This document shows positions 8,800 through 29,392 of a stretch of 64,000 nucleotides of DNA, piece after piece. The stretch spans positions 3,880 through 67,879 of the IMG/VR virus record IMGVR_UViG_3300046517_001864; one strand, 5' to 3'. Numbering within the stretch: the stretch's first letter is position 1; every line of letters begins with the position of its first letter. The stretch comes from a virus. Made by a program: the position numbers and the translations under genes. The notes under the pieces were generated by a model. It did not search any database. It saw nothing but the letters and a program-made list of their open reading frames with translations, and was not told the DNA's origin.

Positions 8800-9381
8800 A
8801 TGGCAACCTGTCGTCCGGAAGTACTCGCGGAGTTTATGGATTCGTATCTCCCGAAGTTGGAGAAGATCCTCGACGTACCGGTGAAGTGGTTTTTATACCA
8901 AGCCCCCGGCGCTGACGCTCTCAGCCCACGGTTAGGAGAAGGTGGGACGTGGTACCTCGTTGAGAAAAACTCACGGCCTGTTCCGAACACGCCATCACCC
9001 TCGTACTTCGCGTCGTTCATGATCGAACAACTTCGGGGATGTTGCGGAGTATGCGTCAGCACCGGTGCTCACGTTCGGGCGGAGTACACCCGCCAGGGCA
9101 TCGGCACGATGTTAAACGAGATGCGGCTCGGAATGGCAAAACGTCTCGGGTACGGGGTGATGCTCTGCACAACTGTGATGGATAACATCGGGGAGGGAAA
9201 AATCCTCGCCACGAATGGATGGCGGGAGATGTACACGTTCGTTAACCCTCGAACCAGTCGGAAGCTGGGGGTTTTCCTTCGCACCCTCCACGACATTCCG
9301 ATGGATGGTCCAGTGTTTGCAAAAGGTGCGCCAGCCGCACGAGCGACGAAGAGTTCGTTGTTGAAAGCGGGGAAGCTGTGA
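8800..9381 (+). CDS. GNAT-fold-like protein, paralog A (GCCG motif)
   Basis: 'RGCCGVCV', 'QGIGTMLNEM', 'NGWREMYTFVNPRTS' are colinear with 'PGCCGINV', 'KGIGTLFMEL', 'LNFTQVCTVVNPNTS' of 12228..12821; the (Q/R)xGIG segment resembles the GNAT acetyl-CoA motif A. Confidence 0.45.
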   Translation: MATCRPEVLAEFMDSYLPKLEKILDVPVKWFLYQAPGADALSPRLGEGGTWYLVEKNSRPVPNTPSPSYFASFMIEQLRGCCGVCVSTGAHVRAEYTRQGIGTMLNEMRLGMAKRLGYGVMLCTTVMDNIGEGKILATNGWREMYTFVNPRTSRKLGVFLRTLHDIPMDGPVFAKGAPAARATKSSLLKAGKL

Positions 9382-10875: not shown

Positions 10876-12231
10876 ATGCCGCAGATTGAAATCCTCCAGG
10901 TTCGACCTGGAAATGTCGTGAGCTTTCTCGCCGAACCGCATTTGGTGCTTCAGCGGTTTAGCTACATGAACATCCATACGTTACTTCTCTTGAACAAAAA
11001 AGGCGAGGTAACGGAGCTTCGGGATTCGCAACTCAGTAAAACCGTTCCGACGGTGATGGAAAAGCTCGAAGACGCCGCAGCCTCAGAATGGCGAGAGAGT
11101 ATCGTCGGGAGCAAAACCGTTTTTGAAAAAGGTCACATGACCACCGGCGGCGGGTCGTGGATGCACATCGGAACTGATCCGGAGATTTTCGCGATGGATC
11201 GAAACGACCATGTGATTCCAGCGTTTGCGTATCTCCCTTCGAAACCCACCCCGAATCCGAACGGGCCACCCATTCCTGCGATATTCTTCGACGGGTTCCA
11301 AGCCGAATGGACAACAAATCCTTCCTCATGTCTCGGGCATCAAACGGATTATGTTCGGCAGGGGATGCAAGGTGTGCTCAACGCCGCACGGAAAATCGAT
11401 CCACAAGCAAAACTCTCACATCTGTCGGTAACCGACATCACATTCGATCCGACGCTACCCCCGGAGCGTTACCAGCTTGGATGCTCACCCTCAATGAACG
11501 CGTACGACGAACCCTCCGTGTTGATGGGGACGCCGGAGCTCCTTCCGTTTCGTTCAGCAGGATGGCATATGCATTTTCGAGGAACTACACCGCCGGTGAA
11601 TGCGGGTGATCCAGTGGATGGTTTCCATAGTGTTGATTCGAAAGAACTTGCCGCGAAGATCATCCAACTCGAAGATGCGATTCTTGGCACGGCATTGGTG
11701 AGTTTCGGCCAACATCACGTCGACCCCCGACGGAGGTTGATGTATGGTCGTGCGGGTGAATACCGGTTGGGGAAGACGCTCGAATACCGAGTGCCAGAGG
11801 TACTGATGGGATGCCATCCCGCCACGTGGAATCTGTTTTGGGACTTAGGCCGTGCGGTGTATTGGCTTGGGATGAGAGGGTTCAACTTCATCTGGGATGC
11901 CGATCCAACCGAGGTTCGAGAGGCGATCAACAACTCGAACGTGGCGTTAGCGCAGAAGATCCTTACGAAGAATATCCAGGTCCTGAATAGTATCTTCAAG
12001 TACCTCTACCGTGTGGGGCCGCTCAAGCCGACACCGGACTGGGCTCCGGATAAGATGGCTGTGAAAGCGATCCTCGAAGGTGCGAACGCGGTGTTGAACG
12101 ATCCAACAGCGGTGAGCAGGAATTGGCGGTTGGAGTCTGGCCAAACCTGGCAGAATGAAAGCCAAGGGCATCTCACCGGAACAAACTGGCGGACGTCTGT
12201 ACCAATGCTCCAAAGAGGAGAGAAACTATGA
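10876..12231 (+). CDS. large protein of unknown function (451 aa), flanked by the two GNAT-like paralogs
   Basis: SD AAGGAGACATATG; stop overlaps next gene (ATGA); no family recognised by eye. Confidence 0.6.
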   Translation: MPQIEILQVRPGNVVSFLAEPHLVLQRFSYMNIHTLLLLNKKGEVTELRDSQLSKTVPTVMEKLEDAAASEWRESIVGSKTVFEKGHMTTGGGSWMHIGTDPEIFAMDRNDHVIPAFAYLPSKPTPNPNGPPIPAIFFDGFQAEWTTNPSSCLGHQTDYVRQGMQGVLNAARKIDPQAKLSHLSVTDITFDPTLPPERYQLGCSPSMNAYDEPSVLMGTPELLPFRSAGWHMHFRGTTPPVNAGDPVDGFHSVDSKELAAKIIQLEDAILGTALVSFGQHHVDPRRRLMYGRAGEYRLGKTLEYRVPEVLMGCHPATWNLFWDLGRAVYWLGMRGFNFIWDADPTEVREAINNSNVALAQKILTKNIQVLNSIFKYLYRVGPLKPTPDWAPDKMAVKAILEGANAVLNDPTAVSRNWRLESGQTWQNESQGHLTGTNWRTSVPMLQRGEKL

Positions 12232-12821
12232 GCATACCCGCTCGGTTAGCAAACCTAATCAAACTCGATCCGTGGAAAACTCGGATTGAGAAACTCGAAC
12301 TCAGTGATATTCGTTTCGAAGGTGCATCGATTGCATCAAACTCGGATATTACTATTAAATTCCGGTATCAAAAGTGTGATCCGGTCATCACGGGTGTGAT
12401 TCCCGTCGGATGGTTTCCGGGATGCTGCGGGATTAACGTAATCCACCACATCAATTTTCCGTCGTGGGTGAAGTACGAAATCGACCCGGTGAAACGAGTT
12501 CCAATCGGACGAAAAGGAATCGGGACGTTGTTCATGGAGCTGGTGCTCGAAGCTTACAAGCAAGCTGGGCGAGAACGCACCGGGCCGGGGTTGTTACTCG
12601 CGGCCACAACGGGGTTCCAACGATCTGGGATAAAGATTCTCGAAAAGCTGAACTTCACCCAGGTTTGTACGGTCGTCAACCCTAACACCTCTCAAGAGGT
12701 AACGTTGTGGTATTACAAAACCTCGAAGTTCAAAACAGAGGCGGATATCAAACTCATGGAGAAAAGGAAAAAAGCTAAAGCAAAGCCGAAACCAAAGGCT
12801 AAACCGAAACCGAAACATTAA
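12228..12821 (+). CDS. GNAT-fold-like protein, paralog B, with C-terminal Lys/Ala/Pro repeat tail (KAKAKPKPKAKPKPKH)
   Basis: See paralog A; translationally coupled to the 451-aa gene. Confidence 0.5.
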   Translation: MSIPARLANLIKLDPWKTRIEKLELSDIRFEGASIASNSDITIKFRYQKCDPVITGVIPVGWFPGCCGINVIHHINFPSWVKYEIDPVKRVPIGRKGIGTLFMELVLEAYKQAGRERTGPGLLLAATTGFQRSGIKILEKLNFTQVCTVVNPNTSQEVTLWYYKTSKFKTEADIKLMEKRKKAKAKPKPKAKPKPKH

Positions 12822-13392
12822 CTTCTCATCGCCGCCCGTCGGGGTTACAACATAACCTGCTGCGGCATACTAACGGGATTAAAGCCATACCCAATGGCGA
12901 TGTGAAAATCCTCTACATGAATAACACGTCTAGATAACAGGATCTACCACGGATGACTCTTGCCTCTCCGATGTTTGTACGTCTCGAAGGAGAGTGCTCG
13001 ACACACGATGGTCTAGTGGGATCGAGTATTCGTAACCTCCATTGCAGGGCCGCTGAAGCCCTCGAAGGGTGTTACCGTAGCTCACTTAAGCCCACACGGC
13101 TCCTCAAGCCGTCATAAAGACCCTGGAGGCAAAAACGGAAAGAGCTCGGGAACCTATCCATCCGCGTGGGGTGGAGCAGAAACTCGCATCGGGCCGTGTA
13201 GAGGTGCCAAGGATCGTATTTGAAGTACAAGTTTACCAAGTAGCTGGCGCTGAGCTACCTAAGAATCTCCATATCTCATCGTGGCCGACGTTAGGTTCGT
13301 CAAAAGGCCGTGGAGGGGAACCGCTCCCACGGCATCGATCATGTTATGGAGAGATCTTAGATCGGGTTGGAGACGTAATTCCCGTGAGGTAA

Positions 13393-13439
13393 TTCATTTT
13401 GTGGGGAGTGTAGACTGGGTCAGGCGGGTTCGATTCCCG
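13393..13439 (+). ncRNA. tRNA-like minihelix (acceptor stem plus T-arm only) / truncated tRNA remnant
   Basis: GGGGAGT...CGGGTTCGATTCCCG...ACTCCCC: 7-bp acceptor-like stem with canonical T-arm (GGTTCGATTCC) but only 47 nt and no anticodon arm; sits in an 0.85-kb ORF-poor gap. Confidence 0.3.
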
Positions 13440-13764
13440 TGAACTCCCCTTCAAGTTTTCCACCCTTCGTTTGGTTAACACCTATGACGAATGGGGTACG
13501 CCGATTACCGGCGAGCTAAAGCACCGTTGGAGGCTAGGAAGCATGTTTATGTTGTAGAAGTTAGGACAGGTGCTAATCGGCGTCGCTTCGGCTTCGCCAT
13601 TAATATTAGCGTTATAACCTGCTGACAGAGTTTCTCACGGCATAACATACGGAAGGTCCGAGCGGAGGGTGGGAATAATAACCTATGAAAAACGAACTAA
13701 TCACAATCGGATGGATCGCGACGGGGATATTTATGCTTTGGGTAGCGTTTGCTCGGTGAGTGTT

Positions 13765-13944
13765 ATGGAATACCATTCATTATGTGATCACTGCGGGGAT
13801 CTGTTGATCGAAGATCATCGTCCCGCGCCGGGAGAATCGGTACATTGTTCTAGCTGTGGGATTACGTTCCCGCATGGACTTCGGGATTCCCATTGGCGGG
13901 AATGGTCTGATCCCTCCAAACCCGATTGGGCAGGTTGCGCGTGA
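13765..13944 (+). CDS. small zinc-ribbon protein (59 aa; CDHC...CSSC)
   Basis: Internal ATG of ORF-track 13669..13944; two CxxC pairs. Confidence 0.3.
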   Translation: MEYHSLCDHCGDLLIEDHRPAPGESVHCSSCGITFPHGLRDSHWREWSDPSKPDWAGCA

Positions 13945-14092
13945 ATGGTCTATGGGAGTTTTTCTTCTGCCCCGCTCACGGTGTGTTGCGATTCGTGGAC
14001 GGCGCTCATCTAACCTACGCTTGGGTATGGGTGCGTCATTCGAGCTACTACGTCCAGGCGTGGTTGTTATCACGTAAGGAGATTGTAAAATA

Positions 14093-14854
14093 ATGTACGC
14101 GTCTTACATTCCCGACAAAGGTACGATAGTCATGTACCCGGATTACAACTCCGCGATGGCGGATCGATTCCCGTATGAAGAAGTTGATTCCGACGCGTAT
14201 AACAAACTCATCCCAACGTTAGAATCAAACAGTCGGGTTTGTTTGACGTGTAGACGCGCTCGACTCGAACACTTCCGGGATCGATGTCGAACAATCGCGG
14301 ATTATGTAACAGGAGGACTTCCAACCGGCCATCCGATTGTTCGTCCACTTGTGGATATCATCATCTGTTCGTGTGGGGTCTCCGTAAATCGGGTGAAGAT
14401 CAACGGGAAAACTCGGTGCTACAAAGCCACCCGAGAGGAAATTCGTCGTTCGATCACAGGGAGATTAGCCACTACCCTGGCGAACGTACCTCAACCGAAT
14501 TGGACACTTGAGGCCCCAGGTCGATTCGCGCCAGACGTGTTACCTCGGCCAAGAGCTGGACGGACTCCGAGAACCGATCGGGATAATCTTGTCTTCAACG
14601 CAAGAATCGAGACAGATAACCTCACCCCACTTCAACAACGGGTTCGTCAGCTTACAGAAGCTATCATCGATCGTGATCGTCCAATGTTTCAGTGGGATCC
14701 GATGGTACGTCCGACAGCACCTCAACCGGAACCAGCCGAACCAAGAGTAACCGATCCGCCTCGTGTAGCGGATAACCAATTCACGGCTCTCCGACTAGAT
14801 GAGACAACCTTCGAACGGGTGGATGATGACATTCAACGAGAGGAGGAAGATTAA
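14093..14854 (+). CDS. hypothetical protein (253 aa), first gene of amidoligase cluster
   Basis: SD AAGGAGATTGTAAAATAATG; acidic C-terminus. Confidence 0.55.
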   Translation: MYASYIPDKGTIVMYPDYNSAMADRFPYEEVDSDAYNKLIPTLESNSRVCLTCRRARLEHFRDRCRTIADYVTGGLPTGHPIVRPLVDIIICSCGVSVNRVKINGKTRCYKATREEIRRSITGRLATTLANVPQPNWTLEAPGRFAPDVLPRPRAGRTPRTDRDNLVFNARIETDNLTPLQQRVRQLTEAIIDRDRPMFQWDPMVRPTAPQPEPAEPRVTDPPRVADNQFTALRLDETTFERVDDDIQREEED

Positions 14855-14857
14855 CCC

Positions 14858-15559
14858 ATGATTCACGGACGTTTTCACGGCGTAACAATCGTCAAACTCT
14901 CGCGAGCTGAGGGGGTGGAGATGCTAGCTTACCTCGGTTGGACTCGGATGATGTATGAAAAACTCATCCGACCGAAAGCTACGACCGAAAGTCCAACGGT
15001 CAAGCGACTACTTTCCTCTGTGCATGGGATTGAAACATGTATTCGAATGTACATACCTGGCGGTGGGTGGACCCCCGTAGATGCGCTGTACCATGAACGG
15101 TTAAACCAAAACAACCTCCTCCAACCAGGAGCAGCGGATGAAGGGTTATCGATTCTGTTAGGTTTTTCCGAAGAATTCATTCGGTCCATTAGCTCATACC
15201 CGAATCTATTCTCCGCTCCAACCGTCACCCGATTGTGTAAATCCGTTGATCGAAGGTTTCCGATCCGGGAATACCACCCCAAATCCGCTACGCTCGAACA
15301 ACGAACTCATTCCATCGAGTTAGTTGTACAACTATTCCAAATCCTCTCTGGGAATAACTCCGGAGAACTTTCCGGCGCGAATGATCGACAGTTGTTGTAC
15401 AACCAATCAACCGGGTTGGTGGAGATGTTGCGGATCTCCCACGATTTGAAGAACATCATCGCAAAGATCGATCATTGGACCGAAGTACTTGGTGCAGAAC
15501 GTCATGTATCGAAAGAGTTTGTTACAAAGACATTAAACACAAGGAGTATTTGTGGTTAA
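14858..15559 (+). CDS. hypothetical protein (233 aa)
   Basis: Tightly packed between 14093 gene and amidoligase (overlaps amidoligase start by 8 nt). Confidence 0.55.
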   Translation: MIHGRFHGVTIVKLSRAEGVEMLAYLGWTRMMYEKLIRPKATTESPTVKRLLSSVHGIETCIRMYIPGGGWTPVDALYHERLNQNNLLQPGAADEGLSILLGFSEEFIRSISSYPNLFSAPTVTRLCKSVDRRFPIREYHPKSATLEQRTHSIELVVQLFQILSGNNSGELSGANDRQLLYNQSTGLVEMLRISHDLKNIIAKIDHWTEVLGAERHVSKEFVTKTLNTRSICG

Positions 15560-16757
15560 CAAGGAAAAATTCTGCGTCAACTGCCTTCGTCGGGCTCGGG
15601 ATACGGAAAAAGCTTTAAAAACCGTCCACTCCCATCCGCTACGGCTCCCGAAGGAACACTGCGCGATCTGCCATCGATGCTCTTCTTGCCGGTGTATCTG
15701 TGTCATCTGCACGAAGTGTAAAGCACGTGTTGCAATGGCCCCAACGAAGTACTGCTCGCACTGTCGGATGTGTAAGAAGTGCGACTCATGCAGGAAAATG
15801 CCGCACTACCTTTCCACCGATCGGTGGGTGGGGACGCGGACATCTTCGCTCATCAACCCGTTGAATCGTACGCTTGGGTTGGAACTTGAGATTGCAAACT
15901 GGGGTACGTTGGAGAACTACCTCATGAACTACGCTCACTACGACCGAGCGCATGATTGGTCGGTGAAGCCATCTGAATCAGAGATGGTCCTCCAACCGTT
16001 AAAAGGGGATTACTTCCTCAAAGCGATGATGGAGTTGGCCGTAACCCTTGCAAAATCAAAAGCTTCGGTGAATGAAACCTGTGCGTTACACGTACACGTC
16101 GGAGGAACGGAGTTGTCATACTGGGAACTTCGACGTCTCCTGCGGGTATACGCGAAGCTTGAGCAAGAGATATACGATTATCTCATTTTACCACATCGGA
16201 GGGACACTCCGACGGTAGTTCACTACTGTCAGATGATGACTAAGCCTCACATCCATTGTGATCGATGTGATCGGTACGATCAACAGTATCCCCGAACCCG
16301 TCGGGTGCTGGAGGATCTCCACACTACGGTAGCTCGAATGGACCGGGCGCAGACCACCACAGATCTCAAAGCATGTTTTTTGAAGATGCTGTATAACATC
16401 CCCCGACCTTCGGAGAAGTATTCGAAAGAGCATCTTCCATCTCGGCTCCAAACCCTCCAAACCCACAAAGGCGGGAGATACGAATGGTGCCGGTACGTTG
16501 GGCTCAACCTCCACGCGTGGCAGTATCGTGGTACGGTCGAATGGCGAATGAAAGAAGCCACTACCCAGCTTGACGAGCTGATCTGCTGGCCGTTGTGGTG
16601 TGGGTGGTTTGTGGAAACCATCACCAAAATGACCGAGAAAGACTCCACCCGTTGGTGGACGTTGATCGAATTCACCGAGCGGTACATGCCAAAGTATCTC
16701 ACTGCATGGGTGAGTAATAAAGTTTCGCAAAGAAAGGTAGGACCGACGTTGTCATGA
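15552..16757 (+). CDS. amidoligase of the GCS2/YbdK (glutamine synthetase-like) fold with N-terminal multi-Cys zinc-ribbon region
   Basis: 'TLGLELEIAN' (G-x-E-x-E start motif) and 'ALHVHVG' (HVHVG motif) typical of gamma-glutamyl-cysteine-ligase-2-type amidoligases; N-terminal CxxC x6 cluster. Confidence 0.55.
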   Translation: MVNKEKFCVNCLRRARDTEKALKTVHSHPLRLPKEHCAICHRCSSCRCICVICTKCKARVAMAPTKYCSHCRMCKKCDSCRKMPHYLSTDRWVGTRTSSLINPLNRTLGLELEIANWGTLENYLMNYAHYDRAHDWSVKPSESEMVLQPLKGDYFLKAMMELAVTLAKSKASVNETCALHVHVGGTELSYWELRRLLRVYAKLEQEIYDYLILPHRRDTPTVVHYCQMMTKPHIHCDRCDRYDQQYPRTRRVLEDLHTTVARMDRAQTTTDLKACFLKMLYNIPRPSEKYSKEHLPSRLQTLQTHKGGRYEWCRYVGLNLHAWQYRGTVEWRMKEATTQLDELICWPLWCGWFVETITKMTEKDSTRWWTLIEFTERYMPKYLTAWVSNKVSQRKVGPTLS

Positions 16758-16948
16758 GTAAACTTTGGACTCCAAAGGACTACTGGCGTAAGGAAATCAT
16801 CGACGTCGCACTGAAAGAGATCGATCGAAACCAGGCGATTGTCTACTATCATCGAATGGACTGTCCACATCCGGAGTTTGTTCCGAAAGGAAACTTCTCG
16901 TCAGTCTGTGCGGTCTGTGGAAGAAATAAGGAGTTTATTAAATCATGA
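16754..16948 (+). CDS. small Cys/His protein (64 aa)
   Basis: ATGA overlaps on both sides; CPHPEF...CAVCGRNK. Confidence 0.4.
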   Translation: MSKLWTPKDYWRKEIIDVALKEIDRNQAIVYYHRMDCPHPEFVPKGNFSSVCAVCGRNKEFIKS

Positions 16949-17157
16949 AAACCCAATTCTGTTCCTTTTGTGGGAAAGACACGCTCCACAACCCATTGAA
17001 GAAAACCCCAAAAGGTGAACAGTTCTACCGTTGTGTGGTATGCGGGAACCCCCGCCGGTACAATGGAAAGAACTTTGCAATAGCTCTTGCGCCGGGTTCG
17101 AGAGCTGTGAACCTTCCCTACCCGATCCCACCGAAAGGTGCGTTGGGGGCATCATGA
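16945..17157 (+). CDS. zinc-ribbon protein (70 aa; CSFCGK...CVVCGNP)
   Basis: Two CxxC pairs; ATGA coupling. Confidence 0.45.
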   Translation: MKTQFCSFCGKDTLHNPLKKTPKGEQFYRCVVCGNPRRYNGKNFAIALAPGSRAVNLPYPIPPKGALGAS

Positions 17158-17447
17158 TGTTTGGATACAAACAAGGAGAAATCGTTGAAACCGATACCGG
17201 ACCTCACTTTGTGGTCCAAAATTCTTGCTACGGAAACATTGGCTTCGCATCGCTCAACCCCGTGGAAGGTCCGCCGACGAAAACGCAGCAGGAGTACCGG
17301 GACTATCACGCCGAGCAGAAGCGACGAGCGGAAGCCAAAGCCGCTGCGCTCCGGGAACGAATCCGTAATCGAATAGAACCCGATCTATCCGAAGAAAAAT
17401 TAATCGACCTTATCGTGGACCTTATCCACGAAGAAAGCGAGTACTAA
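17154..17447 (+). CDS. hypothetical protein (97 aa; ORF-track start 17031 likely too far upstream)
   Basis: ATG at 17154 overlaps upstream stop (ATGA); helical Glu/Arg-rich C-terminus. Confidence 0.4.
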   Translation: MMFGYKQGEIVETDTGPHFVVQNSCYGNIGFASLNPVEGPPTKTQQEYRDYHAEQKRRAEAKAAALRERIRNRIEPDLSEEKLIDLIVDLIHEESEY

Positions 17448-17450
17448 CTC

Positions 17451-18482
17451 ATGTGTGGAATATTCGGCTTTAGCCGTGTAACGGATGTGACCAAACAGAT
17501 GGCCATTCCGTTGATGTGGGAGATGGAGGATCGAGGACGGGACTCTTGGGGCTGCTCCAACGGAATCGAATGGATCAAACAGATCGGTCCGATCACCAAA
17601 ACGTGGCGGAAATACGAATCCGAATGGCACCAGTGGGAACGAGCAATCTTTCACACCCGTGCTGCTTCGCAGGGGAAGGTCTCCATCGAAAACCAACACC
17701 CGTTCCGTATTGACCATACGGAAGAGGATCAATCCGTCCGCACCCTCGTCGGAATCCACAACGGTGTCGTCTCCAATCATGACCAACTTAACGCCAAGTA
17801 CAAACGGGATTTTGATTGTGATACCCCGCATATCTACATGGCCCTCGCGGGGTTCTCTCCTACTCAGGAGATTCACGGGTATGGTAACCTGGCGTGGTAT
17901 GATTACTCGACCACAAACCCGACTCCAATCCTGCACTTCCTCCACTTTAACGCAGGGAACCTGAACGTCGCGAAGCTCGAATCTGGTGAGATGGTGTTCT
18001 GTTCCACGAAAGATCCCATCGATCGTGCTGCGGATTTCGCAGGAACCAAAATCGATCGGTACTTTCACCTGGAAGGGGATAAGATTTACTGGGTGGAACT
18101 GAACTACCAGGATGTCCCAGGATCGGACATGCTCATCGCTGGGCCGAAGCAATCCTTCGGCGGGAGGTCGATTCAAGGAACTGGTTGCGCTACTCCTTGG
18201 GATGGGCACCGTCCAGTTGGGTTACCCTTGTACGAGCACATCGCCGGAGCGAATCCCCGCAGGATGGGTCCTTCCCAAGTCCGGAACACGAATATATCCG
18301 AACTTGGCTCAGAGGATCGACAGAACAACATCTGCCTTAACAATCAATGCAAGAACAAAGTGAAACAATCTCGGCGGAAACAGCTCCTCTGTGAGACCTG
18401 CCTCGTAGCGGTAAAACAAAACCTCGCTTACATGACCACAATTCATGATCGGGTTCGTGGCCGAATGGGAGGTGCTGAATGA
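17451..18482 (+). CDS. class-II (Ntn) glutamine amidotransferase domain protein with C-terminal Cys cluster
   Basis: N-terminus MCGIFGF (catalytic Cys2 as in PurF/AsnB/GlmS); C-terminal CLNNQC...CETC. Confidence 0.65.
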   Translation: MCGIFGFSRVTDVTKQMAIPLMWEMEDRGRDSWGCSNGIEWIKQIGPITKTWRKYESEWHQWERAIFHTRAASQGKVSIENQHPFRIDHTEEDQSVRTLVGIHNGVVSNHDQLNAKYKRDFDCDTPHIYMALAGFSPTQEIHGYGNLAWYDYSTTNPTPILHFLHFNAGNLNVAKLESGEMVFCSTKDPIDRAADFAGTKIDRYFHLEGDKIYWVELNYQDVPGSDMLIAGPKQSFGGRSIQGTGCATPWDGHRPVGLPLYEHIAGANPRRMGPSQVRNTNISELGSEDRQNNICLNNQCKNKVKQSRRKQLLCETCLVAVKQNLAYMTTIHDRVRGRMGGAE

Positions 18483-18808
18483 ATGCAGGAAGACCTACCG
18501 GCTCGGTTGCGACGCCGGGTCGCATTCTTCGAAAGAGCCTCCAGGACTCGGCGAGGCTTGCTTCGCGTACGAGAAAATTACTTGAAGGGCGATTAGTAGC
18601 GATTGAGAAACGTCTCGCGGATGATCTAATTGGGGAGAACACTGACGGGTTGGTGGATCAGCTTCTAAAGATCATGTCCGCTCTCGACCGGACTGTCGAA
18701 CAAACCGGGCGGTTGCTAACGCAGAAACATACTCCGGTGGAAACCACCGAATCCGCCTCACCGACTGATATCATGCACGAACTTACGAAAGGAAAGAAAC
18801 CAAAATGA
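18479..18808 (+). CDS. hypothetical protein (109 aa)
   Basis: ATGA-coupled to GATase gene. Confidence 0.45.
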   Translation: MNAGRPTGSVATPGRILRKSLQDSARLASRTRKLLEGRLVAIEKRLADDLIGENTDGLVDQLLKIMSALDRTVEQTGRLLTQKHTPVETTESASPTDIMHELTKGKKPK

Positions 18809-19302
18809 GTACGGTTTACGAATACGCAACGGGACAGTTTCACATTCACGTGAAACTTGCGGGAGAGTTGGACAAGATCGAACTTTTCCACGCGATCATC
18901 GAAAAGATCGACGGGTCTTGGCCTTGGGGTCCTTCGAAAGGTAACCACGGCACGGTTCGGGTTTGTAGGAAGTGCAAGGGATTCCTTCTATCCAACCCCC
19001 GCTTCGCGCCACAGGATCTCAAAGCCGCAGGCGAACAGGCCGGGATTCATATCAAAATCTACGGTTATTCCCCTCAGCTCAACTGTTTCGAAGGAACCGA
19101 ATACCAGCACACCGAATCCATCGACCGTGTGGCCTGCCGTGCTCTCTACGGACACAAACCGAAACGGATCACGGTGCTGGGTGGGAAGCTTTGGATCGGG
19201 GATTCTACCCCAACAACCGGCCCTCGGTTGATCGAAGCTGTGGATCGAAAGGTCATTGAACTTCCTTCGGTCGCTCCGAAGGACAGCCAGTTGGTGAACT
19301 GA
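18805..19302 (+). CDS. hypothetical protein (165 aa)
   Basis: ATGA-coupled. Confidence 0.5.
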   Translation: MSTVYEYATGQFHIHVKLAGELDKIELFHAIIEKIDGSWPWGPSKGNHGTVRVCRKCKGFLLSNPRFAPQDLKAAGEQAGIHIKIYGYSPQLNCFEGTEYQHTESIDRVACRALYGHKPKRITVLGGKLWIGDSTPTTGPRLIEAVDRKVIELPSVAPKDSQLVN

Positions 19303-19471
19303 GATGTTCCACAAACAATTCTATCGCGGTCTCGACGGTCACTGGTATCTCCGAGGGTTATTCCACATCCTCCTTTGGCGGTCACCAGGACGAACTAAAC
19401 CAGGGAGCTTTGTTGGGTTATGCGGGAACTTATCGCCGGAGTAATCCTCCTCGAACTACTTCTCGCGCCGG

Positions 19472-20320
19472 TTGAACATTGGTTACATAGGAGAATATAT
19501 GGGAATACACGTCATCGGGCCGCAGGACTGGGAAACAGTCATTGCTTTAAATGACATGCTTCGGCATGTCCCGGAGGAAGGGACGTTCAAGCTGGGCGGA
19601 CGTCATTTCGAAGCGCAGGGGCAGTTCAAACGGTTTGACAAAGCCGGGGTCCCGACCGTCGAGTGGACCACGAATCTCACTACAGCGAAAGGATGGGTCC
19701 GAAACGGAGCAGCGGTGCTTGGACGAGACCGGTACCATTCTCGGGGGGAGGATATTGTTCTAGTATCCCACACTGCTGATATCACAGACGCTTGGGAAAG
19801 TAAGTCCGTCTGGACCAAGTTTGTCCCCTCCCAAGCCGAATGGCGATTCCATATCGTTAACGGGCAGTCCATCTCCCGGGATCTGAAGGTCTTCAACCGA
19901 CCCGGGCAGGGGCGAGGGTCCCTCGCGAGCATTAGAGCCCGCGCATGGGATTGGTCGGCCCGACATGATGTTGAGCCCCCAGCCGAGGCTCGCCGAGCTG
20001 CTGTAGCGGCTGTGGACGCGTTGGAGGGGTATACCCACGGTGCGGTCGACCTGCTTATCGACATGGAGTTCCGTCCAGTCGTGCTTGAAGTCAACCGCTG
20101 TCCGGGGATGGATGCCTACACCCGTGAGCGGTGGTGTAACGCGATTCGAAAGTTTGTACGATCTCACGGGCGGGGTAACGCGTCCGCTGAAACAGCAGCG
20201 GCCCGTCCACCAGTTCCAGCTTGGGTTCATCGACCCTCGACGGTCATGGCTCGGACCGAAACCGGGCGAATTTCGTCCCGGTCGAGAGAGGAATTCTACG
20301 AAGGCGTTGAGGTTGTATAA
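19472..20320 (+). CDS. ATP-grasp fold protein (candidate amide ligase)
   Basis: 'GAVDLLIDMEFRPVVLEVNRCPGMD' matches the ATP-grasp 'D...ExN..PG' C-terminal motif; alternative start at 19499 (SD AGGAGAA). Confidence 0.45.
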   Translation: MNIGYIGEYMGIHVIGPQDWETVIALNDMLRHVPEEGTFKLGGRHFEAQGQFKRFDKAGVPTVEWTTNLTTAKGWVRNGAAVLGRDRYHSRGEDIVLVSHTADITDAWESKSVWTKFVPSQAEWRFHIVNGQSISRDLKVFNRPGQGRGSLASIRARAWDWSARHDVEPPAEARRAAVAAVDALEGYTHGAVDLLIDMEFRPVVLEVNRCPGMDAYTRERWCNAIRKFVRSHGRGNASAETAAARPPVPAWVHRPSTVMARTETGRISSRSREEFYEGVEVV

Positions 20321-20466: not shown

Positions 20467-20844
20467 ATGAAAAGAGAGCACAAATCGGTTTCGGAGAATT
20501 TCCGTCGTCGAAATTCCCGGTTCGAAGCCCGACCGGGGCATCGGCAACGGCGAACGCCGAGGGTGTTTCAACCAAGGTTGTCGAATGAGCAGGTTCGAGA
20601 GTTGCTCGGTCCGGAAGCATTAAGAACTCTTAAGGAACTCGCTCAGGAGGAGATGAATGTGATTCGTCAGATGGAAGTATCAAAGTTCTGTGGAACATGT
20701 CATAGGATTCTTGTTGCGGAAGAGAACTTCCACAAGGACAACCACGAGCCAGATGGATGGTGCTGGGAGTGTAAGACCTGTGTACGAGCACGACGAACGG
20801 AACGACACCAACGAATTCACGACTTGATCTGGAGACGAGTATGA
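20467..20844 (+). CDS. zinc-finger protein (125 aa)
   Basis: CGTCHR...CWECKTC; basic N- and C-termini. Confidence 0.45.
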   Translation: MKREHKSVSENFRRRNSRFEARPGHRQRRTPRVFQPRLSNEQVRELLGPEALRTLKELAQEEMNVIRQMEVSKFCGTCHRILVAEENFHKDNHEPDGWCWECKTCVRARRTERHQRIHDLIWRRV

Positions 20845-21347
20845 TTTATTTATCCTCACCAATTTTCGAATCAACCGCTGATGGAGTAATCCTCCCGGTC
20901 TCCGGGACGGAGGATATCCCGGAAGGATCGTTGCATGAGAAGTTCCTTTCCGAGTTGGATCTCTCCTACTGTGAGCATTACTTCCGAGAGGTAAAATTGG
21001 ATTCGTGGGCGTTTACCCCCGCGACGTGTTCGTTTATCCGAGAAGGTGAGCCGTGGTATCACAAGTGGGTAGTAGAGATGCCATGTCTTCCGGAGGATCG
21101 GTTTCATACACTATCCCCTCGGGTACATCGAGCCGCGTATTTGGTGAATAAGCTCGGGTTGAAGACCGTAGCGGTTTCGCATTTGAATTGTAAGATCAGT
21201 CGGAACGCTCAGGAGATTCTCTGGCAATGGGTGGAAAACCAACTCGACGGAGTGGAGATACACCTTCACACGCAGGAGTATGACGATGCGGAGCAGCCAG
21301 CGATTGTTCTAGCAACGCAGGTGGATACGGTGGTGGGTTGTGCATAG
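20841..21347 (+). CDS. hypothetical protein (168 aa)
   Basis: ATGA-coupled ORF. Confidence 0.5.
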   Translation: MIYLSSPIFESTADGVILPVSGTEDIPEGSLHEKFLSELDLSYCEHYFREVKLDSWAFTPATCSFIREGEPWYHKWVVEMPCLPEDRFHTLSPRVHRAAYLVNKLGLKTVAVSHLNCKISRNAQEILWQWVENQLDGVEIHLHTQEYDDAEQPAIVLATQVDTVVGCA

Positions 21348-25803: not shown

Positions 25804-26166
25804 ATGAGGAATACTCTAACACAGGTTGAAGATCGGATATGCGAAGCGAAAGCCTCGACCCATAGTTCCGATAGAGCATCTCTTCTCACACGTCGTAGGT
25901 GGTTGCGGACACTGGTAATGTTGTCCTTAGGTGTATTCGGGATTCGTAATGCATCCTCAGGTGCTTCCACCCCAACGTGCGAGGATACGATTAACAAGTT
26001 TCAATGTTTGTTCAACGCGTGGGTGGAGCAGGTGAAGGAAAACAATCCTAACATCCTCGATGCGAAGCATCCCACAGCTATCCAAGACGAAATCGCCACG
26101 TGGCAAGTGGTACGTCACGAGTGGCGGGGGTTTGAGAAGCAGATTAACAAGATGTATGGAATTTAA
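25804..26166 (+). CDS. hypothetical protein (120 aa)
   Basis: SD GGAGAAATAATG; stop overlaps polymerase start (TAATG). Confidence 0.45.
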   Translation: MRNTLTQVEDRICEAKASTHSSDRASLLTRRRWLRTLVMLSLGVFGIRNASSGASTPTCEDTINKFQCLFNAWVEQVKENNPNILDAKHPTAIQDEIATWQVVRHEWRGFEKQINKMYGI

Positions 26167-28838
26167 TGTCAGAATTCAACAAAGCATTCATCGAACGTAA
26201 ACTCGCACCGAAGCCAGAGTTCTGCTCCCGGTGCCCCATCAACGAATTTACCGAAGGTTACGTCCCACTCGAACGAGGATCGGGAACGGAGCTTTGGGTA
26301 GGCGAGGCGGCAGGGGATGAGGAGGCAAGTCGTGGAAAACCTTTCATTGGCGGTGCTGGTAGTTGGCTTAACAGTATGCTTCAGTCTGCTAGGATTTCTC
26401 GTAGCAGCATTAGTCTTATTAACACTATCGGCTGTCATCCACCTGACAATATCTACCCTGGTTCAGATAAGTGGAATTTTACTGATCGTGCCGTTGCTCG
26501 GCAGGCGATTGATTACTGTCGTCAACAACACCTTGAACCAGCGTTAGTCCAGCTCAAACCAACCCGGATCGTGGCTCTTGGCAACGAGGCGATGAAAGCT
26601 GTTACGCCTCGGCAGGGTGTATTGCAATGGCGCGGATCGCCGTTACCACTGAAGGGAGCTCTGCACGCAGGCCCCCGGGTGGTACCAACCTTACACCCTG
26701 CTTTCCTAATGCGACAGGCGGGATTGTTCTCAGTCGCGGTGAAAGACTTACGTCGTGGGTTGGAATTACCTCCGGAGAATTATGATCTATACCCTAGCAT
26801 TGATACTGTTAAAGCGTTTACTGCGACTACGTTTTCTTTTGACTTCGAGTGGGACACGCTCAATAACATCACGATGTGTGGTCTCAGTGATCGATGGTAC
26901 CATGCGATTGTTGTGCCGTTTGTTCAACCTTTTATCACCGAGCTTAAGAGGATATTCGAAGCAGCAGAATGCCTCATTGGTCACAATATCGTCGATGCCG
27001 ATACGAGCTACTTCGATTCGTTGGGATGGAAGGTAACGGCGAGGCTTCATGATACGATGCTCGCGCAGCATCTGATCCAGCCCGACATGCGGCATGGACT
27101 TGGGTTTGTCGCGTCAGTGTTTTCGTCAAAGGTGTTTTGGAAAGGTAGTGGGGAGGAAACAGAAGATGATGCTGGAAATATTCTTCCAACCGGAGCTCAA
27201 TGGCGGACGTGGGATAGCCCCGACGCAATACCTCGGGAGTTTGGAGGTTACGGAGGCTGTCGTTCGAGCGATGAAGCTTGGAGATTATATAACGCTAGAG
27301 ACACCGATGGGACACTCCAATGCGAAGCTCGTATCTTTCGGACCCTCCGGGATTTCGGGCAGGAGTTCGTCTATACGAACGTCTCGGTCCCAGCGGCGTA
27401 CATCTGCCGAGACATCAACCGAACAGGTCTCAGGATTAACCCCAACAAAGTCACTGAAATTAGGGATACACTCTCGCGAGAAATCTCCGCGACGGAAGCC
27501 CTCCTCCCGGAAGGGTTAGCAGCGTATGAAAAACCAATCACCAAACAAATTGAGGCTCCTGCTGGAACGTATGCGCCGAAAGTCTTACGGTGTAAGGGAA
27601 CTCGAAAAGCTGGAACAGTTCACGATCTGGTTGAGTGGACAGTATCCACTCCTGGAGTATGCGGATGTCCTACGTGTGGTAAGGAATTCTCTCCTAAACT
27701 TAAACAAGTTAAACGAATCAAAGTTCCAGGAACTAAACGGATTGTGCCGTGGAACAGCACGGCACAAGTAATCACGTATGCTAAAGCCAAAGGTTGTAAA
27801 GAAGTCCCGCACGCGAAGACCGGTAATTCTTCTGGAGACAAACGTGCCCGTAAAATTTGGGGCCGTGAACATACAGAATTCACCCTTGTGGATACTCTTA
27901 AGAGGCTTGTCACACAGCGAAATAGCTTCGCTAAAGAAGCATTGCAAGGTCTTGACTGGGTCAGGTTTCGCCTCGCAGTTACGGGTACTTCCGAAGGACG
28001 TCTCTCATGTTCTGGAGTCTATCCTGCGAACCTGAACCTCCAGAATCAACCCAAAGCGATCAAAAAGATCTTCATCCCTGATAAAGAAGGTTATGGAATT
28101 CTCTCCCATGATATCGTCCAAGGAGAAAACATGCTCACCGCATGGCTGGCGGAGGATTGGCCACGATGGGAGAGACTCAATACTCCGGGGTTTGATGAGC
28201 ATAGTTACATGGCTAGTCGGTTTTTCAATACCCCGGTTGGTCCAAATGACCCACTCAGAAAACCTGGTAAGGTTATCAATCACGGTCGGAATTACGGACT
28301 CGGTGAGCGGAAAACACAAGACTATCTGTCTTTGGAAGGATTCCAATTCTCGATTGCGGATATCCGAGAGATGATAAATATATGGAAAAAGGAAAACGCT
28401 CGTACCGCAGCATGGCAACAGGAGACCGTACACCTCGCACAGAAGCAAAGCTACCTCGACAATCCGTTCGGAAGACGGAGGTGGTTCCAAGGGCGAGACT
28501 TCGCTACCAAGGCATTGGCATTCTTACCGGCTTCGACACTAGCCGATATGGTTCTTCGAATGATGTTAGCTCACTACCCAGAGAGATTTGGATCAGAGAT
28601 TTTAAATTTAGGACTTGGTGTTTGTACATCGCTAATGGAGAACTGGCGTTTGGCTCTACAAGTCCACGACGATCTCGTATTCATCGGTCCAGATGAATCC
28701 CACCGCGAGATGGCCCAACGCACCCGAGCGGTGATGTCGCAGGAATGGAAAGAGCTTGGAGGTTTCCACTTCCGGGTGGAGACGAAGTATAGCACCACGA
28801 CATGGGGTGATGGGAAGGTTCTGGAGATGGTGGCATGA
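26166..28838 (+). CDS. family A DNA polymerase with N-terminal family-4 uracil-DNA-glycosylase-like domain and 3'-5' exonuclease domain
   Basis: N-term 'GEAAGDEEASRGKPFIGGAGSWLNSML' = UDG family-4 motif A, 'HPAFL' = motif B; 'FDFEWDT' exo I; 'RKPGKVINHGRNYGLG' = PolA motif B (RRxAKxxNFGxxYG); 'QVHDDLVF' = motif C. Confidence 0.9.
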   Translation: MSEFNKAFIERKLAPKPEFCSRCPINEFTEGYVPLERGSGTELWVGEAAGDEEASRGKPFIGGAGSWLNSMLQSARISRSSISLINTIGCHPPDNIYPGSDKWNFTDRAVARQAIDYCRQQHLEPALVQLKPTRIVALGNEAMKAVTPRQGVLQWRGSPLPLKGALHAGPRVVPTLHPAFLMRQAGLFSVAVKDLRRGLELPPENYDLYPSIDTVKAFTATTFSFDFEWDTLNNITMCGLSDRWYHAIVVPFVQPFITELKRIFEAAECLIGHNIVDADTSYFDSLGWKVTARLHDTMLAQHLIQPDMRHGLGFVASVFSSKVFWKGSGEETEDDAGNILPTGAQWRTWDSPDAIPREFGGYGGCRSSDEAWRLYNARDTDGTLQCEARIFRTLRDFGQEFVYTNVSVPAAYICRDINRTGLRINPNKVTEIRDTLSREISATEALLPEGLAAYEKPITKQIEAPAGTYAPKVLRCKGTRKAGTVHDLVEWTVSTPGVCGCPTCGKEFSPKLKQVKRIKVPGTKRIVPWNSTAQVITYAKAKGCKEVPHAKTGNSSGDKRARKIWGREHTEFTLVDTLKRLVTQRNSFAKEALQGLDWVRFRLAVTGTSEGRLSCSGVYPANLNLQNQPKAIKKIFIPDKEGYGILSHDIVQGENMLTAWLAEDWPRWERLNTPGFDEHSYMASRFFNTPVGPNDPLRKPGKVINHGRNYGLGERKTQDYLSLEGFQFSIADIREMINIWKKENARTAAWQQETVHLAQKQSYLDNPFGRRRWFQGRDFATKALAFLPASTLADMVLRMMLAHYPERFGSEILNLGLGVCTSLMENWRLALQVHDDLVFIGPDESHREMAQRTRAVMSQEWKELGGFHFRVETKYSTTTWGDGKVLEMVA

Positions 28839-29203: not shown

Positions 29204-29392
29204 ATGTCTCAGGAAGATCGGATAGCGGAGCTGGAACTCGCGTTGGAGAACCTGCTAGAGTGCTTTGAGGAAACCCCCACAGGGTTTGATATTGAAACCT
29301 CGGATGGGATAGGTCGGATAACCGAAGCCGCCGAGGAGATGGTTATTCAAGCTCGGGAGGCGTTGGATCACGACGATGCTACGGGAGAATAA
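29204..29392 (+). CDS. small acidic protein (62 aa)
   Basis: SD AAGGAGGGACACTAAGATG. Confidence 0.4.
   Translation: MSQEDRIAELELALENLLECFEETPTGFDIETSDGIGRITEAAEEMVIQAREALDHDDATGE

What the first reader, a model, noticed from the sequence alone, without database searches (positions are those of the whole stretch)
15552..20320. Amide-bond-forming toolkit: GCS2-type amidoligase, class-II glutamine amidotransferase and ATP-grasp protein in one early operon
Three enzyme types that make amide bonds by different mechanisms are encoded within 5 kb, interleaved with zinc-ribbon proteins and joined by start-stop overlaps:
- amidoligase 15552..16757 with 'TLGLELE' and 'ALHVHVG' motifs and an N-terminal Zn ribbon
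- class-II glutamine amidotransferase 17451..18482 with N-terminal 'MCGIFG'
- ATP-grasp 19472..20320 with '...VLEVNRCPGMD'

Phage-encoded amidoligase plus GATase combinations have been linked bioinformatically, and in some phages experimentally, to hypermodification of thymidine-derived bases via 5-hmdU, or to synthesis of peptide-like tags. Here no thymidylate-synthase-like hydroxymethylase or recognisable 5-hmdU DNA kinase is visible, so this could be a divergent or new variant of such a pathway, or it could act on a different substrate.
Basis: partly seen in the sequence, partly recalled or inferred. Interest (0 to 1): 0.9.

Follow-up and report, generated by a model that had tools for sequence, protein, structure and literature searches.

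The report
Conserved phage amide-ligase gene module
This phage carries a copy, with some unusual accessory genes, of an amide-bond-forming gene module described in 2009 and shared by many phages; the module's function has never been tested, and nothing here links it to DNA base modification.

Summary
15552-16757 is an Amidoligase_2 enzyme. 17451-18482 is a stand-alone class-II (Ntn) glutamine amidotransferase with an intact catalytic set. 19499-20320 is a RimK-like ATP-grasp ligase. The genes are tightly coupled by start-stop overlaps.

The same four enzymes, in the same order and upstream of the replication genes, occur in LUZ24-like, phiEco32/7-11/GAP52-like, PA11-like, phiM6, Vibrio and Alcaligenes phages. 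This is the phage amidoligase module of Iyer et al. 2009, so it is not a new toolkit.

The suggested link to thymidine hypermodification is not supported:
- No dUMP hydroxymethylase, 5-hmdU DNA kinase, aGPT-Pplase or TET/JBP was found in any ORF of at least 110 aa scanned.
- Two cultured phages that carry the module have restriction-digestible DNA.

The most likely role is stepwise ATP-dependent ligation plus glutamine-dependent amidation on a peptide-like, non-DNA substrate. The target is unknown.

This copy differs from the known ones:
- It has no GGCT.
- The amidoligase has a 15-cysteine N-terminus.
- The cassette GATase, GRP-arm coiled-coil protein, HCCC zinc domain, ATP-grasp is specific to this clade.

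Interest is moderate to low.

The parts
10876..12231 (+). COOH-NH2 ligase type 2 (phiEco32-like, GS/GCS2-type fold), 451 aa.
   Evidence: PHROG 3815 'COOH.NH2 ligase', E=4.5e-17. Pfam PF14395 is sub-threshold at 12.3 bits. tblastn hits annotated COOH-NH2 ligases in 89 phage records. Invariant D101-P-E103, H231, H233 and R305 in alignment A6.
12228..12821 (+). p197: clade-specific 197-aa protein translationally coupled to the COOH-NH2 ligase. It has an invariant GCCG motif. A GNAT-like fold is possible but unproven.
   Evidence: Homologues follow the ligase in L010 and L013. It is not homologous to the ~190-aa protein at this position in LUZ24-like, GAP52, QDWS535 or WD615 phages (hhalign probability 0.1%). 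The AF2 model is poor (pLDDT 51). The only PDB profile hit is a GNAT at E=0.48. No homologues were found in the 5.8-billion protein database.
14093..14854 (+). p253: unknown protein, first gene of the coupled run that leads into the amidoligase.
   Evidence: Conserved only in the close relative L010. No Pfam, PHROG or NCBIfam hit.
14858..15559 (+). p233: unknown protein whose stop overlaps the amidoligase start by 8 nt.
   Evidence: Conserved in L010 with the same 8-nt overlap. No family hit.
15552..16757 (+). Amidoligase_2 (GS/GCS2-like COOH-NH2 ligase) with a 15-Cys N-terminal zinc-cluster-like region.
   Evidence: Pfam PF12224, E=2e-16. Core residues E, D.S, H.H, Y..N and E.R are invariant across 10 phage homologues. 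The Cys-rich N-terminus is shared only with L010, L005 and L007.
16754..16948 (+). p64: small ORF with overlapping start and stop codons, seen only in this window.
   Evidence: No homologue in any fetched locus.
16945..17157 (+). p70: small CxxC...CxxC zinc-ribbon protein.
   Evidence: A homologue lies elsewhere in L005 (E=6e-12), so it is mobile and not a core module part.
17154..17447 (+). p98: small protein with a conserved acidic C-terminal tail (...LIDLIVDLIHEESEY).
   Evidence: Its C-terminal 15 residues are identical in the L010 homologue. It is absent from L005, L007 and L013, where the GATase directly follows the amidoligase.
17451..18482 (+). Stand-alone class-II (Ntn) glutamine amidotransferase/amidohydrolase domain plus a C-terminal zinc ribbon.
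   Evidence: family hits and invariant catalytic residues. It lies immediately downstream of the amidoligase in all relatives and in two MAG contigs.
18479..18808 (+). p109: clade-specific helical/coiled-coil protein with an N-terminal GRPxG arm and a conserved C-terminal D[VI]MxEL.KGKK.
   Evidence: It sits between the GATase and the HCCC protein in L005, L007, L010, L013 and L014. It is absent from the LUZ24-like, GAP52, QDWS535, phiM6 and WD615 modules. PDB profile search gives only coiled-coil noise.
18805..19302 (+). HCCC-domain protein: uncharacterised ~95-aa zinc-binding-type domain (invariant H13, C54, C57, Q78; near-invariant C94) with a ferredoxin-like fold.
19499..20320 (+). RimK-like ATP-grasp ligase.
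20841..21347 (+). p168: conserved downstream protein of unknown function. Its membership of the module is uncertain.
   Evidence: Homologues lie downstream of the ATP-grasp gene in L010, L013 and, weakly, L005. It is not GGCT-like (hhalign probability 0.4%).

Best explanation
The region is one copy of the conserved phage 'amidoligase module': COOH-NH2 ligase type 2, Amidoligase_2, a stand-alone class-II GATase and a RimK-like ATP-grasp ligase. It probably works as a multi-step, ATP-dependent amide-ligation pathway on a peptide-like, non-DNA carboxylate substrate.

Inferred mechanism:
1. The two GS/GCS2-fold ligases activate carboxylates as acyl-phosphates and join an amine to each.
2. The Ntn glutaminase, which is always adjacent to Amidoligase_2 and has no synthase domain of its own, hydrolyses glutamine. 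It most likely hands the ammonia to that ligase, giving a glutamine-dependent amidation.
3. The RimK-like ATP-grasp enzyme adds one or more L-glutamate-type residues to a terminal carboxylate.

The published proposal for the target is the peptidoglycan stem peptide or its precursor, for superinfection exclusion or lysis priming. A protein C-terminus, as in RimK/S6, is equally compatible with the data.

What is shown: enzyme family, intact catalytic residues and conserved synteny. What is inferred: the order of the steps, the coupling between enzymes and the substrate.

In this clade the module has extra, uncharacterised partners (p197, p109, the HCCC domain protein and a Cys-rich N-terminus on the amidoligase). 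These may act as scaffold, targeting or regulatory parts.
For: - **Family assignments:**
- **Catalytic residues intact:** GATase, ATP-grasp, both GS-type ligases.
- **Collinear module upstream of replication genes in unrelated phages:** Alcaligenes QDWS535, phiM6, GAP52 of the 7-11/phiEco32 group, the LUZ24-like phages TL and UFV-P2, Vibrio WD615 and uncultured relatives L005, L007, L010, L013 and L014.
- **Amidoligase-GATase adjacency is the most conserved feature.** It also occurs alone in OM43 phages and in two MAG contigs.
- **RimK structures are the best PDB matches** for the ATP-grasp profile.
- **Literature reading of the module:** peptidoglycan modification or superinfection exclusion, after Iyer et al. 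2009.
- **Virion kinship:** a SU10_adaptor hit ties this phage's virion module to phiEco32/SU10-type podoviruses, which carry the module.
Against: - No member of the module has been characterised experimentally in anything I could find.
- The substrate is unknown.
- Neither GS-type ligase family has a solved structure detectable by sequence.
- The GATase could act as a plain amidohydrolase rather than an ammonia donor.
- All the proteins appear cytoplasmic, so a cell-wall role would have to act on precursors.
- The module is also reported in viruses assigned to archaea that lack murein, which weakens the peptidoglycan version.
- This copy lacks the GGCT and the ~190-aa protein found in the classic module, so its product may differ.
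Confidence: 0.55

Rival explanations
1. Auxiliary metabolic pathway for a free small molecule. In this reading the GS/GCS2-type ligases and the ATP-grasp enzyme (glutathione-synthetase-like) build a gamma-glutamyl di- or tripeptide, or another amide metabolite, and the GATase feeds nitrogen. The product would be a glutathione-like thiol, a signal or an antibiotic-like compound that benefits the infected cell or excludes competitors.
For: - The GCS2/GS-like fold of both ligases and an ATP-grasp enzyme annotated elsewhere as 'glutathione synthase'.
- Related modules carry a gamma-glutamyl cyclotransferase.
- The AMG interpretation appears in PMC10945688 and PMC10580990.
- A secondary-metabolite reading is cited for phage Marvin.
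Against: - The best structural relatives of the ATP-grasp enzyme are RimK protein-tail ligases, not GshB.
- This copy has no GGCT.
- The growth-promotion evidence in PMC10945688 is indirect.
- The clade-specific zinc-rich and GRP-arm partners are not expected for a simple metabolite pathway.
Confidence: 0.2
2. Nucleic-acid hypermodification. In this reading the ligases extend or amidate a side chain on a DNA (or RNA) base, as the first reader suggested for 5-hmdU-derived thymidine modifications.
For: - Amidoligase and GATase Pfam hits co-occur with 5-HMUDK/aGPT-Pplase genes in some viral contigs (PMC8989533).
- In this clade the enzymes carry or neighbour zinc-rich domains and a GRP-arm (AT-hook-like) protein that could bind DNA.
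- The phage encodes several nucleotide-pool enzymes: NUDIX, a MazZ-like dATP/dGTP pyrophosphohydrolase, an HD protein and a HAD phosphatase. Its DNA polymerase is fused to a UDG-like domain.
Against: - No dUMP/dCMP hydroxymethylase, 5-HMUDK, aGPT-Pplase, TET/JBP, PurZ or deazaguanine genes were found in any ORF of at least 110 aa scanned.
- Canonical DNA offers no carboxylate for these ligases.
- The module-bearing phages tf and U17 have restriction-digestible DNA.
- The same module sits in many phages sequenced and cloned by ordinary methods.
Confidence: 0.08
3. The genes are neighbours without a joint pathway. Each enzyme would act independently, for example on separate host-takeover targets, and the clustering would only reflect the early-gene layout.
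For: - The gaps of about 170-196 and 146 nt around the ATP-grasp gene, and the 1.27-kb gap after p197, mean that one transcript is not shown.
- Some phages keep only the amidoligase-GATase pair.
Against: - The same four enzyme families recur together, in the same order, in phages whose other genes share no detectable similarity.
- Translational coupling runs through most of the block.
Confidence: 0.05

Closest known systems
Phage amidoligase / 'putative peptidoglycan modification' module of LUZ24-like (Bruynoghevirus) phages (UFV-P2 ORF21-29; TL gp15-gp21; PaP3, tf, U17)
   Same: - The order COOH-NH2 ligase type 2, one ~190-aa protein, Amidoligase_2, class-II GATase, small ORF(s), ATP-grasp.
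- The module lies on the replication-gene strand, just upstream of the primase and polymerase genes.
- The enzymes are homologous at 21-32% identity.
   Different: - The LUZ24-like module ends with a GGCT/AIG2 gene; none is present here.
- The ~190-aa protein after the first ligase is not homologous to p197.
- The LUZ24-like amidoligase lacks the 15-Cys N-terminus.
- p109 and the HCCC protein are absent there.
- Here two extra unknown genes and a 1.27-kb non-coding gap split the module.
phiEco32 / 7-11 / GAP52 / SU10-type podovirus module (source of the Pfam name 'phiEco32-like COOH.NH2 ligase type 2'; Iyer, Abhiman, Burroughs and Aravind 2009, Mol Biosyst 5:1636)
   Same: - The same four enzyme families in the same order.
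- This phage's virion module also has a SU10-type adaptor protein.
   Different: - The GAP52 enzymes are much larger: amidoligase 513 aa, GATase 657 aa, ATP-grasp 394 aa.
- The accessory small ORFs are not homologous.
- I could not read the 2009 paper itself. Its proposals are taken from papers that cite it.
RimK (ribosomal protein S6 : L-glutamate ligase) family of ATP-grasp enzymes
   Same: - RimK structures are the best PDB profile matches (7qyr 1.2e-9, 5zct, 4iwx).
- The ATP/Mg residues and the E-x-R-x-H strand are conserved.
   Different: - Only about 25% identity.
- Pfam RimK (PF08443) does not hit the window protein directly.
- No S6-like substrate is known.
- The protein has a conserved C-terminal FYEGVEVV tail that RimK lacks.
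Two-component glutamine-dependent amidating enzymes such as MurT/GatD, or AsnB/LtsA acting on peptidoglycan carboxylates (from my own knowledge of these families)
   Same: The logic of an ATP-dependent carboxylate-activating subunit paired with a glutaminase that supplies ammonia. This is a working analogy for the Amidoligase_2 plus GAT-II pair.
   Different: - The folds differ: MurT is Mur-ligase-like and GatD is a class-I GATase.
- No sequence relationship was tested or claimed.
- Coupling of the phage pair is inferred only from their conserved adjacency.
5-hmdU-based thymidine hypermodification clusters (5-HMUDK, aGPT-Pplase, PLP/rSAM enzymes; Lee et al., PMC8989533)
   Same: Some such clusters contain ORFs with amidoligase and GATase Pfam hits.
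   Different: None of the defining genes is present in this window.

Membership tests
Phage amidoligase module (Iyer et al. 2009; LUZ24/phiEco32 type) | COOH-NH2 ligase type 2 (PF14395-type) gene present | tested here: met
   10876-12231: PHROG 3815, E=4.5e-17. It is homologous to annotated COOH-NH2 ligases in 89 phage records. The Pfam hit itself is sub-threshold (12.3 bits against 25).
Phage amidoligase module (Iyer et al. 2009; LUZ24/phiEco32 type) | Amidoligase_2 gene immediately followed by a stand-alone class-II GATase | tested here: met
   15552-16757 and 17451-18482. Three small lineage-specific ORFs lie between them here. The two genes are directly adjacent in L005, L007 and L013.
Phage amidoligase module (Iyer et al. 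2009; LUZ24/phiEco32 type) | ATP-grasp ligase downstream, with the whole block upstream of the replication genes on the same strand | tested here: met
   The ATP-grasp gene is at 19499-20320. It is followed by an exonuclease at 21692, Sak4 at 23928, PolA at 26166 and a primase at 30009. The layout is the same.
Phage amidoligase module (Iyer et al. 2009; LUZ24/phiEco32 type) | Gamma-glutamyl cyclotransferase (AIG2/GGCT) gene at the end of the module (present in LUZ24-likes and phiM6; not universal) | tested here: not met
   No Pfam or PHROG GGCT hit in the window. hhalign of p168, HCCC, p233 and p253 against phage GGCTs gives probabilities of at most 1.5%.
Phage amidoligase module (Iyer et al. 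2009; LUZ24/phiEco32 type) | Conserved ~190-aa protein after the COOH-NH2 ligase (TL gp16 / GAP52_083 / QDWS535_42 family) | tested here: not met
   p197 occupies that position but is unrelated (hhalign probability 0.1%).
Pfam Amidoligase_2 (PF12224) | Score above the gathering threshold and conserved GS/GCS2-type Glu/His/Arg residues | tested here: met
   61 bits against 22. E48, H84, H86, R120, Y219, N223, E234 and R236 (alignment A5 numbering) are invariant.
Class-II (Ntn) glutamine amidotransferase | N-terminal nucleophile Cys directly after Met, plus the Arg / Asn-Gly / Asp glutamine-site residues | tested here: met
   MCGIFG at the N-terminus. C2, R70, N104, G105 and D124 are invariant in 9 phage homologues and align to the GlmS residues. 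GATase_6 scores 27.9 bits against 27.
Class-II (Ntn) glutamine amidotransferase | Fused acceptor (synthase) domain, as in GlmS, PurF, AsnB and GltB | tested here: not met
   Only residues ~1-220 match. The C-terminal ~120 aa has no family hit and holds only a zinc ribbon.
RimK-type ATP-grasp alpha-L-glutamate ligase | Sequence membership (Pfam RimK PF08443 or a profile match to RimK structures) with the ATP/Mg residues | tested here: inconclusive
   The family profile hits RimK structures best (1.2e-9), and D184, E197 and N199 are kept. The window protein itself gets no PF08443 hit; only the distant homologue P0008 does.
RimK-type ATP-grasp alpha-L-glutamate ligase | Adds L-Glu to the C-terminal Glu of a protein substrate | not testable with these tools
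   This needs an enzyme assay.
5-hmdU thymidine hypermodification pathway | dUMP hydroxymethylase (thymidylate-synthase-like) or TET/JBP to make 5-hmdU | tested here: not met
   No such Pfam hit in any ORF of at least 110 aa scanned.
5-hmdU thymidine hypermodification pathway | 5-HMUDK P-loop kinase and aGPT-Pplase | tested here: not met
   No Pfam hit. The only weak 'polynucleotide kinase' PHROG hit (32498-33325) is a HAD-type phosphatase with a DxDGV motif and no Walker A motif.
5-hmdU thymidine hypermodification pathway | Modified thymidine in virion DNA | not testable with these tools
   This needs LC-MS. Indirect evidence: the module-bearing phages tf and U17 have digestible DNA.

The most novel reading that the evidence does not exclude
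In this clade the amide-ligation enzymes may have been retargeted to nucleic acid. The amidoligase has a 15-Cys N-terminus and the GATase has a zinc ribbon. Its conserved partners are a GRP-arm (AT-hook-like) coiled-coil protein and a new HCCC zinc domain. The phage also encodes several dNTP-pool enzymes and a UDG-fused polymerase. Together these could point to an aminoacyl or peptidyl decoration of DNA (or of a tRNA-like RNA) made by a route that does not use 5-hmdU.
Probability: 0.07. Interest if true: 0.85.

Novelty: new variant of a known kind. Interest (0 to 1): 0.35.

Why it matters
The four-enzyme module is one of the most widespread unexplained gene sets in lytic phages. It is present in therapy-relevant Pseudomonas LUZ24-like phages, in phiEco32-like coliphages and in marine and soil phages. 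Its product has been a guess since 2009.

This window does not solve that question. It does add three things:
- The module also exists in a divergent uncultured lineage.
- The amidoligase-GATase pair is the invariant core, which supports a glutamine-dependent amidation step.
- One lineage has swapped the accessory genes for a conserved cassette that holds two uncharacterised protein families.

For this scan, the main value is negative. The finding should not be counted as evidence for a new DNA-hypermodification pathway.

Tried and rejected
- **DNA similarity to known phages:** a blastn search of the 4.8-kb region against 50,697 phage records found nothing. Only protein-level relatives exist.
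- **ATP-grasp close relatives in IMG/VR:** none were found by pattern scan.
- **p197 as a GNAT:**
  - It has no Pfam, PHROG or NCBIfam hit and no database homologues.
  - The single-sequence AF2 model is poor (pLDDT 51), and Foldseek on it gives noise, with GNATs only at probability 0.3-0.5.
  - A PDB profile search gives one GNAT at E=0.48.
  - I left this as 'possible, unproven'.
- **p109:** PDB profile matches are coiled-coil noise only.
- **Solved structures for the two GS-type ligases:** none are detectable by sequence.
- **GGCT hidden among the unknown ORFs:** rejected.
- **Z-genome (2-aminoadenine) idea**, raised by the MazZ-like and HD genes: there is no PurZ-sized or PurZ-like ORF.
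- **tRNA in the 12.8-14.1 kb gap:** ARAGORN and Rfam find no gene, only a T-arm-like minihelix.
- **Host inference from the genome collection:** only distant GATase relatives turned up, and none of them is a close relative of this phage.
- **Iyer et al. 2009:** the paper is not held in the library.

Full report
**1. What is there**

The window is most of an uncultured phage genome.
- Replication and early genes lie on the + strand from about 4 to 34 kb. They include a PD-(D/E)XK exonuclease, Sak4, a family-A DNA polymerase, a primase and an exonuclease subunit.
- Virion genes lie on the - strand.
- The exact ATP-grasp protein of the window is on record on JGI metagenome contigs, the longest 67,879 bp. 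The window therefore covers nearly the whole genome.
- At the DNA level nothing in 50,697 phage records resembles the region.

**2.

- **15552-16757** is a Pfam Amidoligase_2 protein (E=2e-16). It has the GS/GCS2-type Glu/His/Arg residues that are invariant across ten phage homologues.
- **17451-18482** begins MCGIFG and aligns to the glutaminase domain of GlmS. The nucleophile Cys, the Arg, the Asn-Gly oxyanion pair and the Asp are all kept and are invariant in nine phage homologues. The Pfam score is only just above threshold (27.9 against 27). Only the ~220-residue Ntn domain is recognisable; the rest is a zinc-ribbon tail, and there is no synthase domain.
- **19472/19499-20320** is an ATP-grasp enzyme (PHROG 2599, E=1.4e-22). 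A profile of the family finds RimK structures first (1.2e-9), then RiPP ATP-grasp ligases and D-Ala-D-Ala ligases. The Asp/Glu/Asn Mg-ATP triad is invariant. The likely start is ATG 19499, behind an AGGAG.
- **Start-stop overlaps** link p233, the amidoligase, p64, p70 and p98, and also the GATase, p109 and the HCCC protein. The ATP-grasp gene is flanked by gaps of 150-200 nt, so one operon is not demonstrated. 'Early' is only a positional inference.

**3.

- A fourth amide ligase sits upstream at 10876-12231: a phiEco32-type COOH-NH2 ligase type 2 (PHROG 3815, E=4.5e-17; homologues in 89 phage records).
- With it, the gene order is COOH-NH2 ligase, one small protein, Amidoligase_2, class-II GATase, small ORFs, ATP-grasp, lying upstream of the primase and polymerase genes.
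- That is the order in:
  - LUZ24-like Pseudomonas phages (UFV-P2 ORF21-29 in PMC3890496; phage TL);
  - Alcaligenes phage QDWS535;
  - Cronobacter phage GAP52 of the 7-11/phiEco32 group;
  - Vibrio phage WD615;
  - Sinorhizobium phiM6, in expanded form.
- Citing papers trace the module to Iyer, Abhiman, Burroughs and Aravind 2009. They call it a putative peptidoglycan-modification module, or a system for superinfection exclusion or secondary-metabolite synthesis. I could not read the 2009 paper itself.
- I found no experimental characterisation of any member.
- A SU10-type adaptor protein among the virion genes suggests that this phage is a distant structural relative of the phiEco32/SU10 podoviruses that carry the module.

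**4. The DNA-hypermodification idea**

- Pfam scans of every ORF of at least about 110 aa on both strands, except the 1443-aa structural ORF (PHROGs only), found no thymidylate-synthase-like hydroxymethylase, no aGPT-Pplase and no TET/JBP.
- The one weak 'polynucleotide kinase' PHROG hit is a HAD-type phosphatase with a DxDGV motif and no Walker A motif.
- Cultured phages with the homologous module have ordinary DNA as far as has been tested. Phage tf was cloned from RsaI, HpaI, EcoRV and SmaI digests and cut with HaeIII. The LUZ24-like phage U17 was the most restriction-sensitive of four phages, at 11 of 16 enzymes.
- I therefore rate a DNA target at under 10%.

**5. How it most likely works**

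Shown:
- four enzyme families that each make or break amide bonds;
- intact active sites;
- conserved co-linearity.

Inferred:
- The Ntn glutaminase has no acceptor domain. It is always next to Amidoligase_2, including in phages and two MAG contigs that have only this pair. The simplest reading is a two-component, glutamine-dependent, ATP-driven amidation of a carboxylate by a GS-fold enzyme.
- The second GS-type ligase and the RimK-like ATP-grasp enzyme would add amino acids, with glutamate the default for the RimK clade.
- The product would be a short Glu/Gln-type peptide or an amidated peptide on a carboxylate-bearing acceptor.
- Whether that acceptor is a peptidoglycan precursor, a protein tail or a free metabolite cannot be decided from sequence.
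- I give the peptide-like, non-DNA reading 0.55 and a free-metabolite pathway 0.2.

**6. What is different in this copy**

- There is no GGCT.
- The protein after the first ligase (p197) is unrelated to the one in LUZ24-like and GAP52 phages. It has an invariant GCCG motif and only weak hints of a GNAT fold.
- The amidoligase carries a 15-Cys N-terminal region shared only with its closest relatives.
- Between the GATase and the ATP-grasp gene lie two proteins that always travel with them in this lineage (L005, L007, L010, L013, L014). Both are absent from the classic modules:
  - **p109** is a coiled-coil protein with an N-terminal GRPxG arm.
  - **The HCCC protein** is a ~95-residue domain with invariant His/Cys/Cys/Gln and a near-invariant Cys. 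It is found in 138 sequence clusters and has no Pfam family. Its confident AF2 model (pLDDT 88.6) shows only a generic ferredoxin-like resemblance to known folds.
- These accessory parts are the only new element of the finding. Their roles are unknown.

**7. Verdict**

- The feature is real and correctly described.
- It is an already recognised, widely distributed phage module, here as a lineage-specific variant.
- The headline interpretation, a possible new thymidine-hypermodification route, is not supported.
- Interest is moderate to low (0.35). The module's function remains an open question, but this window does not make it more testable than the cultured LUZ24-like or phiEco32-like phages already do.

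Noticed in passing
window 29392-29853, 31878-32243, 32212-32748, 32741-33325 (+): A run of nucleotide-pool enzymes follows the primase: a NUDIX hydrolase (E=4e-17), a PF18909 dATP/dGTP diphosphohydrolase (MazZ-like, E=1e-29), an HD-domain protein (E=9e-8) and a HAD-type phosphatase (FDCDGV motif). No PurZ-like ORF is present, so a 2-aminoadenine genome is not indicated. The set still suggests deliberate reshaping of the dNTP pool.
   Followed up: partly
window 26166-28838 (+): The family-A DNA polymerase carries an N-terminal uracil-DNA-glycosylase-superfamily domain (residues 45-192, E=1e-17). The close relative L010 has the same fusion.
   Followed up: no
window 13403-13450 and 13458-13505 (+), inside the 12822-14092 gap that has no long ORF: - A tRNA-like minihelix: a 7-bp acceptor-like stem plus a perfect T-arm, GCGGG-TTCGATT-CCCGT. 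Neither ARAGORN nor Rfam calls it a tRNA.
- Beside it is a ~50-nt block that is almost identical in the relative L010 and can form a hairpin. L010 also has a T-arm-like sequence in the same gap.
- It could be a decayed tRNA, a regulatory RNA or a promoter region.
   Followed up: partly
window 8800-9381 (+): A 193-aa ORF is a distant paralogue of p197 (HMM E=2e-5) and shares the invariant GCCG and NP.T motifs. L010 has the same paralogue.
   Followed up: partly
window 17154-17447 (+): The small protein p98 ends in ...LIDLIVDLIHEESEY. Those last 15 residues are identical in L010, although the proteins are only ~48% identical overall. An acidic tail of this kind is what RimK-type ligases extend. 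However, p98 is missing from the more distant relatives.
   Followed up: partly
window 20290-20320 (+), C-terminus of the ATP-grasp protein: After a variable linker the ATP-grasp protein ends in a conserved tail, [FY]YEGVE[VI][VM]. The tail is shared with relatives at 42-69% identity. It could be a docking or self-modification motif.
   Followed up: no
window 52733-53500 (-): A Pfam SU10_adaptor hit (E=3e-11) links the virion module to phiEco32/SU10-type podoviruses, the group after which the COOH-NH2 ligase type 2 family is named.
   Followed up: no
window 737-1327 and 1114-1935 (-): A cupin/mannose-6-phosphate-isomerase-like protein and a PfkB-family sugar kinase lie at the end of the - strand block. 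These are unusual phage cargo and may relate to sugar metabolism or glycosylation.
   Followed up: no
window 40369-40974 (-), 34585-35511 (-), 33464-33988 (+): A bona fide GNAT acetyltransferase sits among the virion genes (E=1.7e-7). A histidine-phosphatase-family protein and an SPFH/Band-7 protein lie at the strand switch.
   Followed up: no
window 20841-21347 (+): p168 is conserved downstream of the ATP-grasp gene in L010, L013 and, weakly, L005. It has an 'ADG-hhh-PV' N-terminal strand and a later 'hAVP/S' strand that reminded me of macro-type domains. No tool supported any family assignment.
   Followed up: partly
L007 6978-7829: The relatives L006 and L007 carry a second, shorter Amidoligase_2 paralogue directly after the COOH-NH2 ligase, in the position that p197 occupies in the window.
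   Followed up: no
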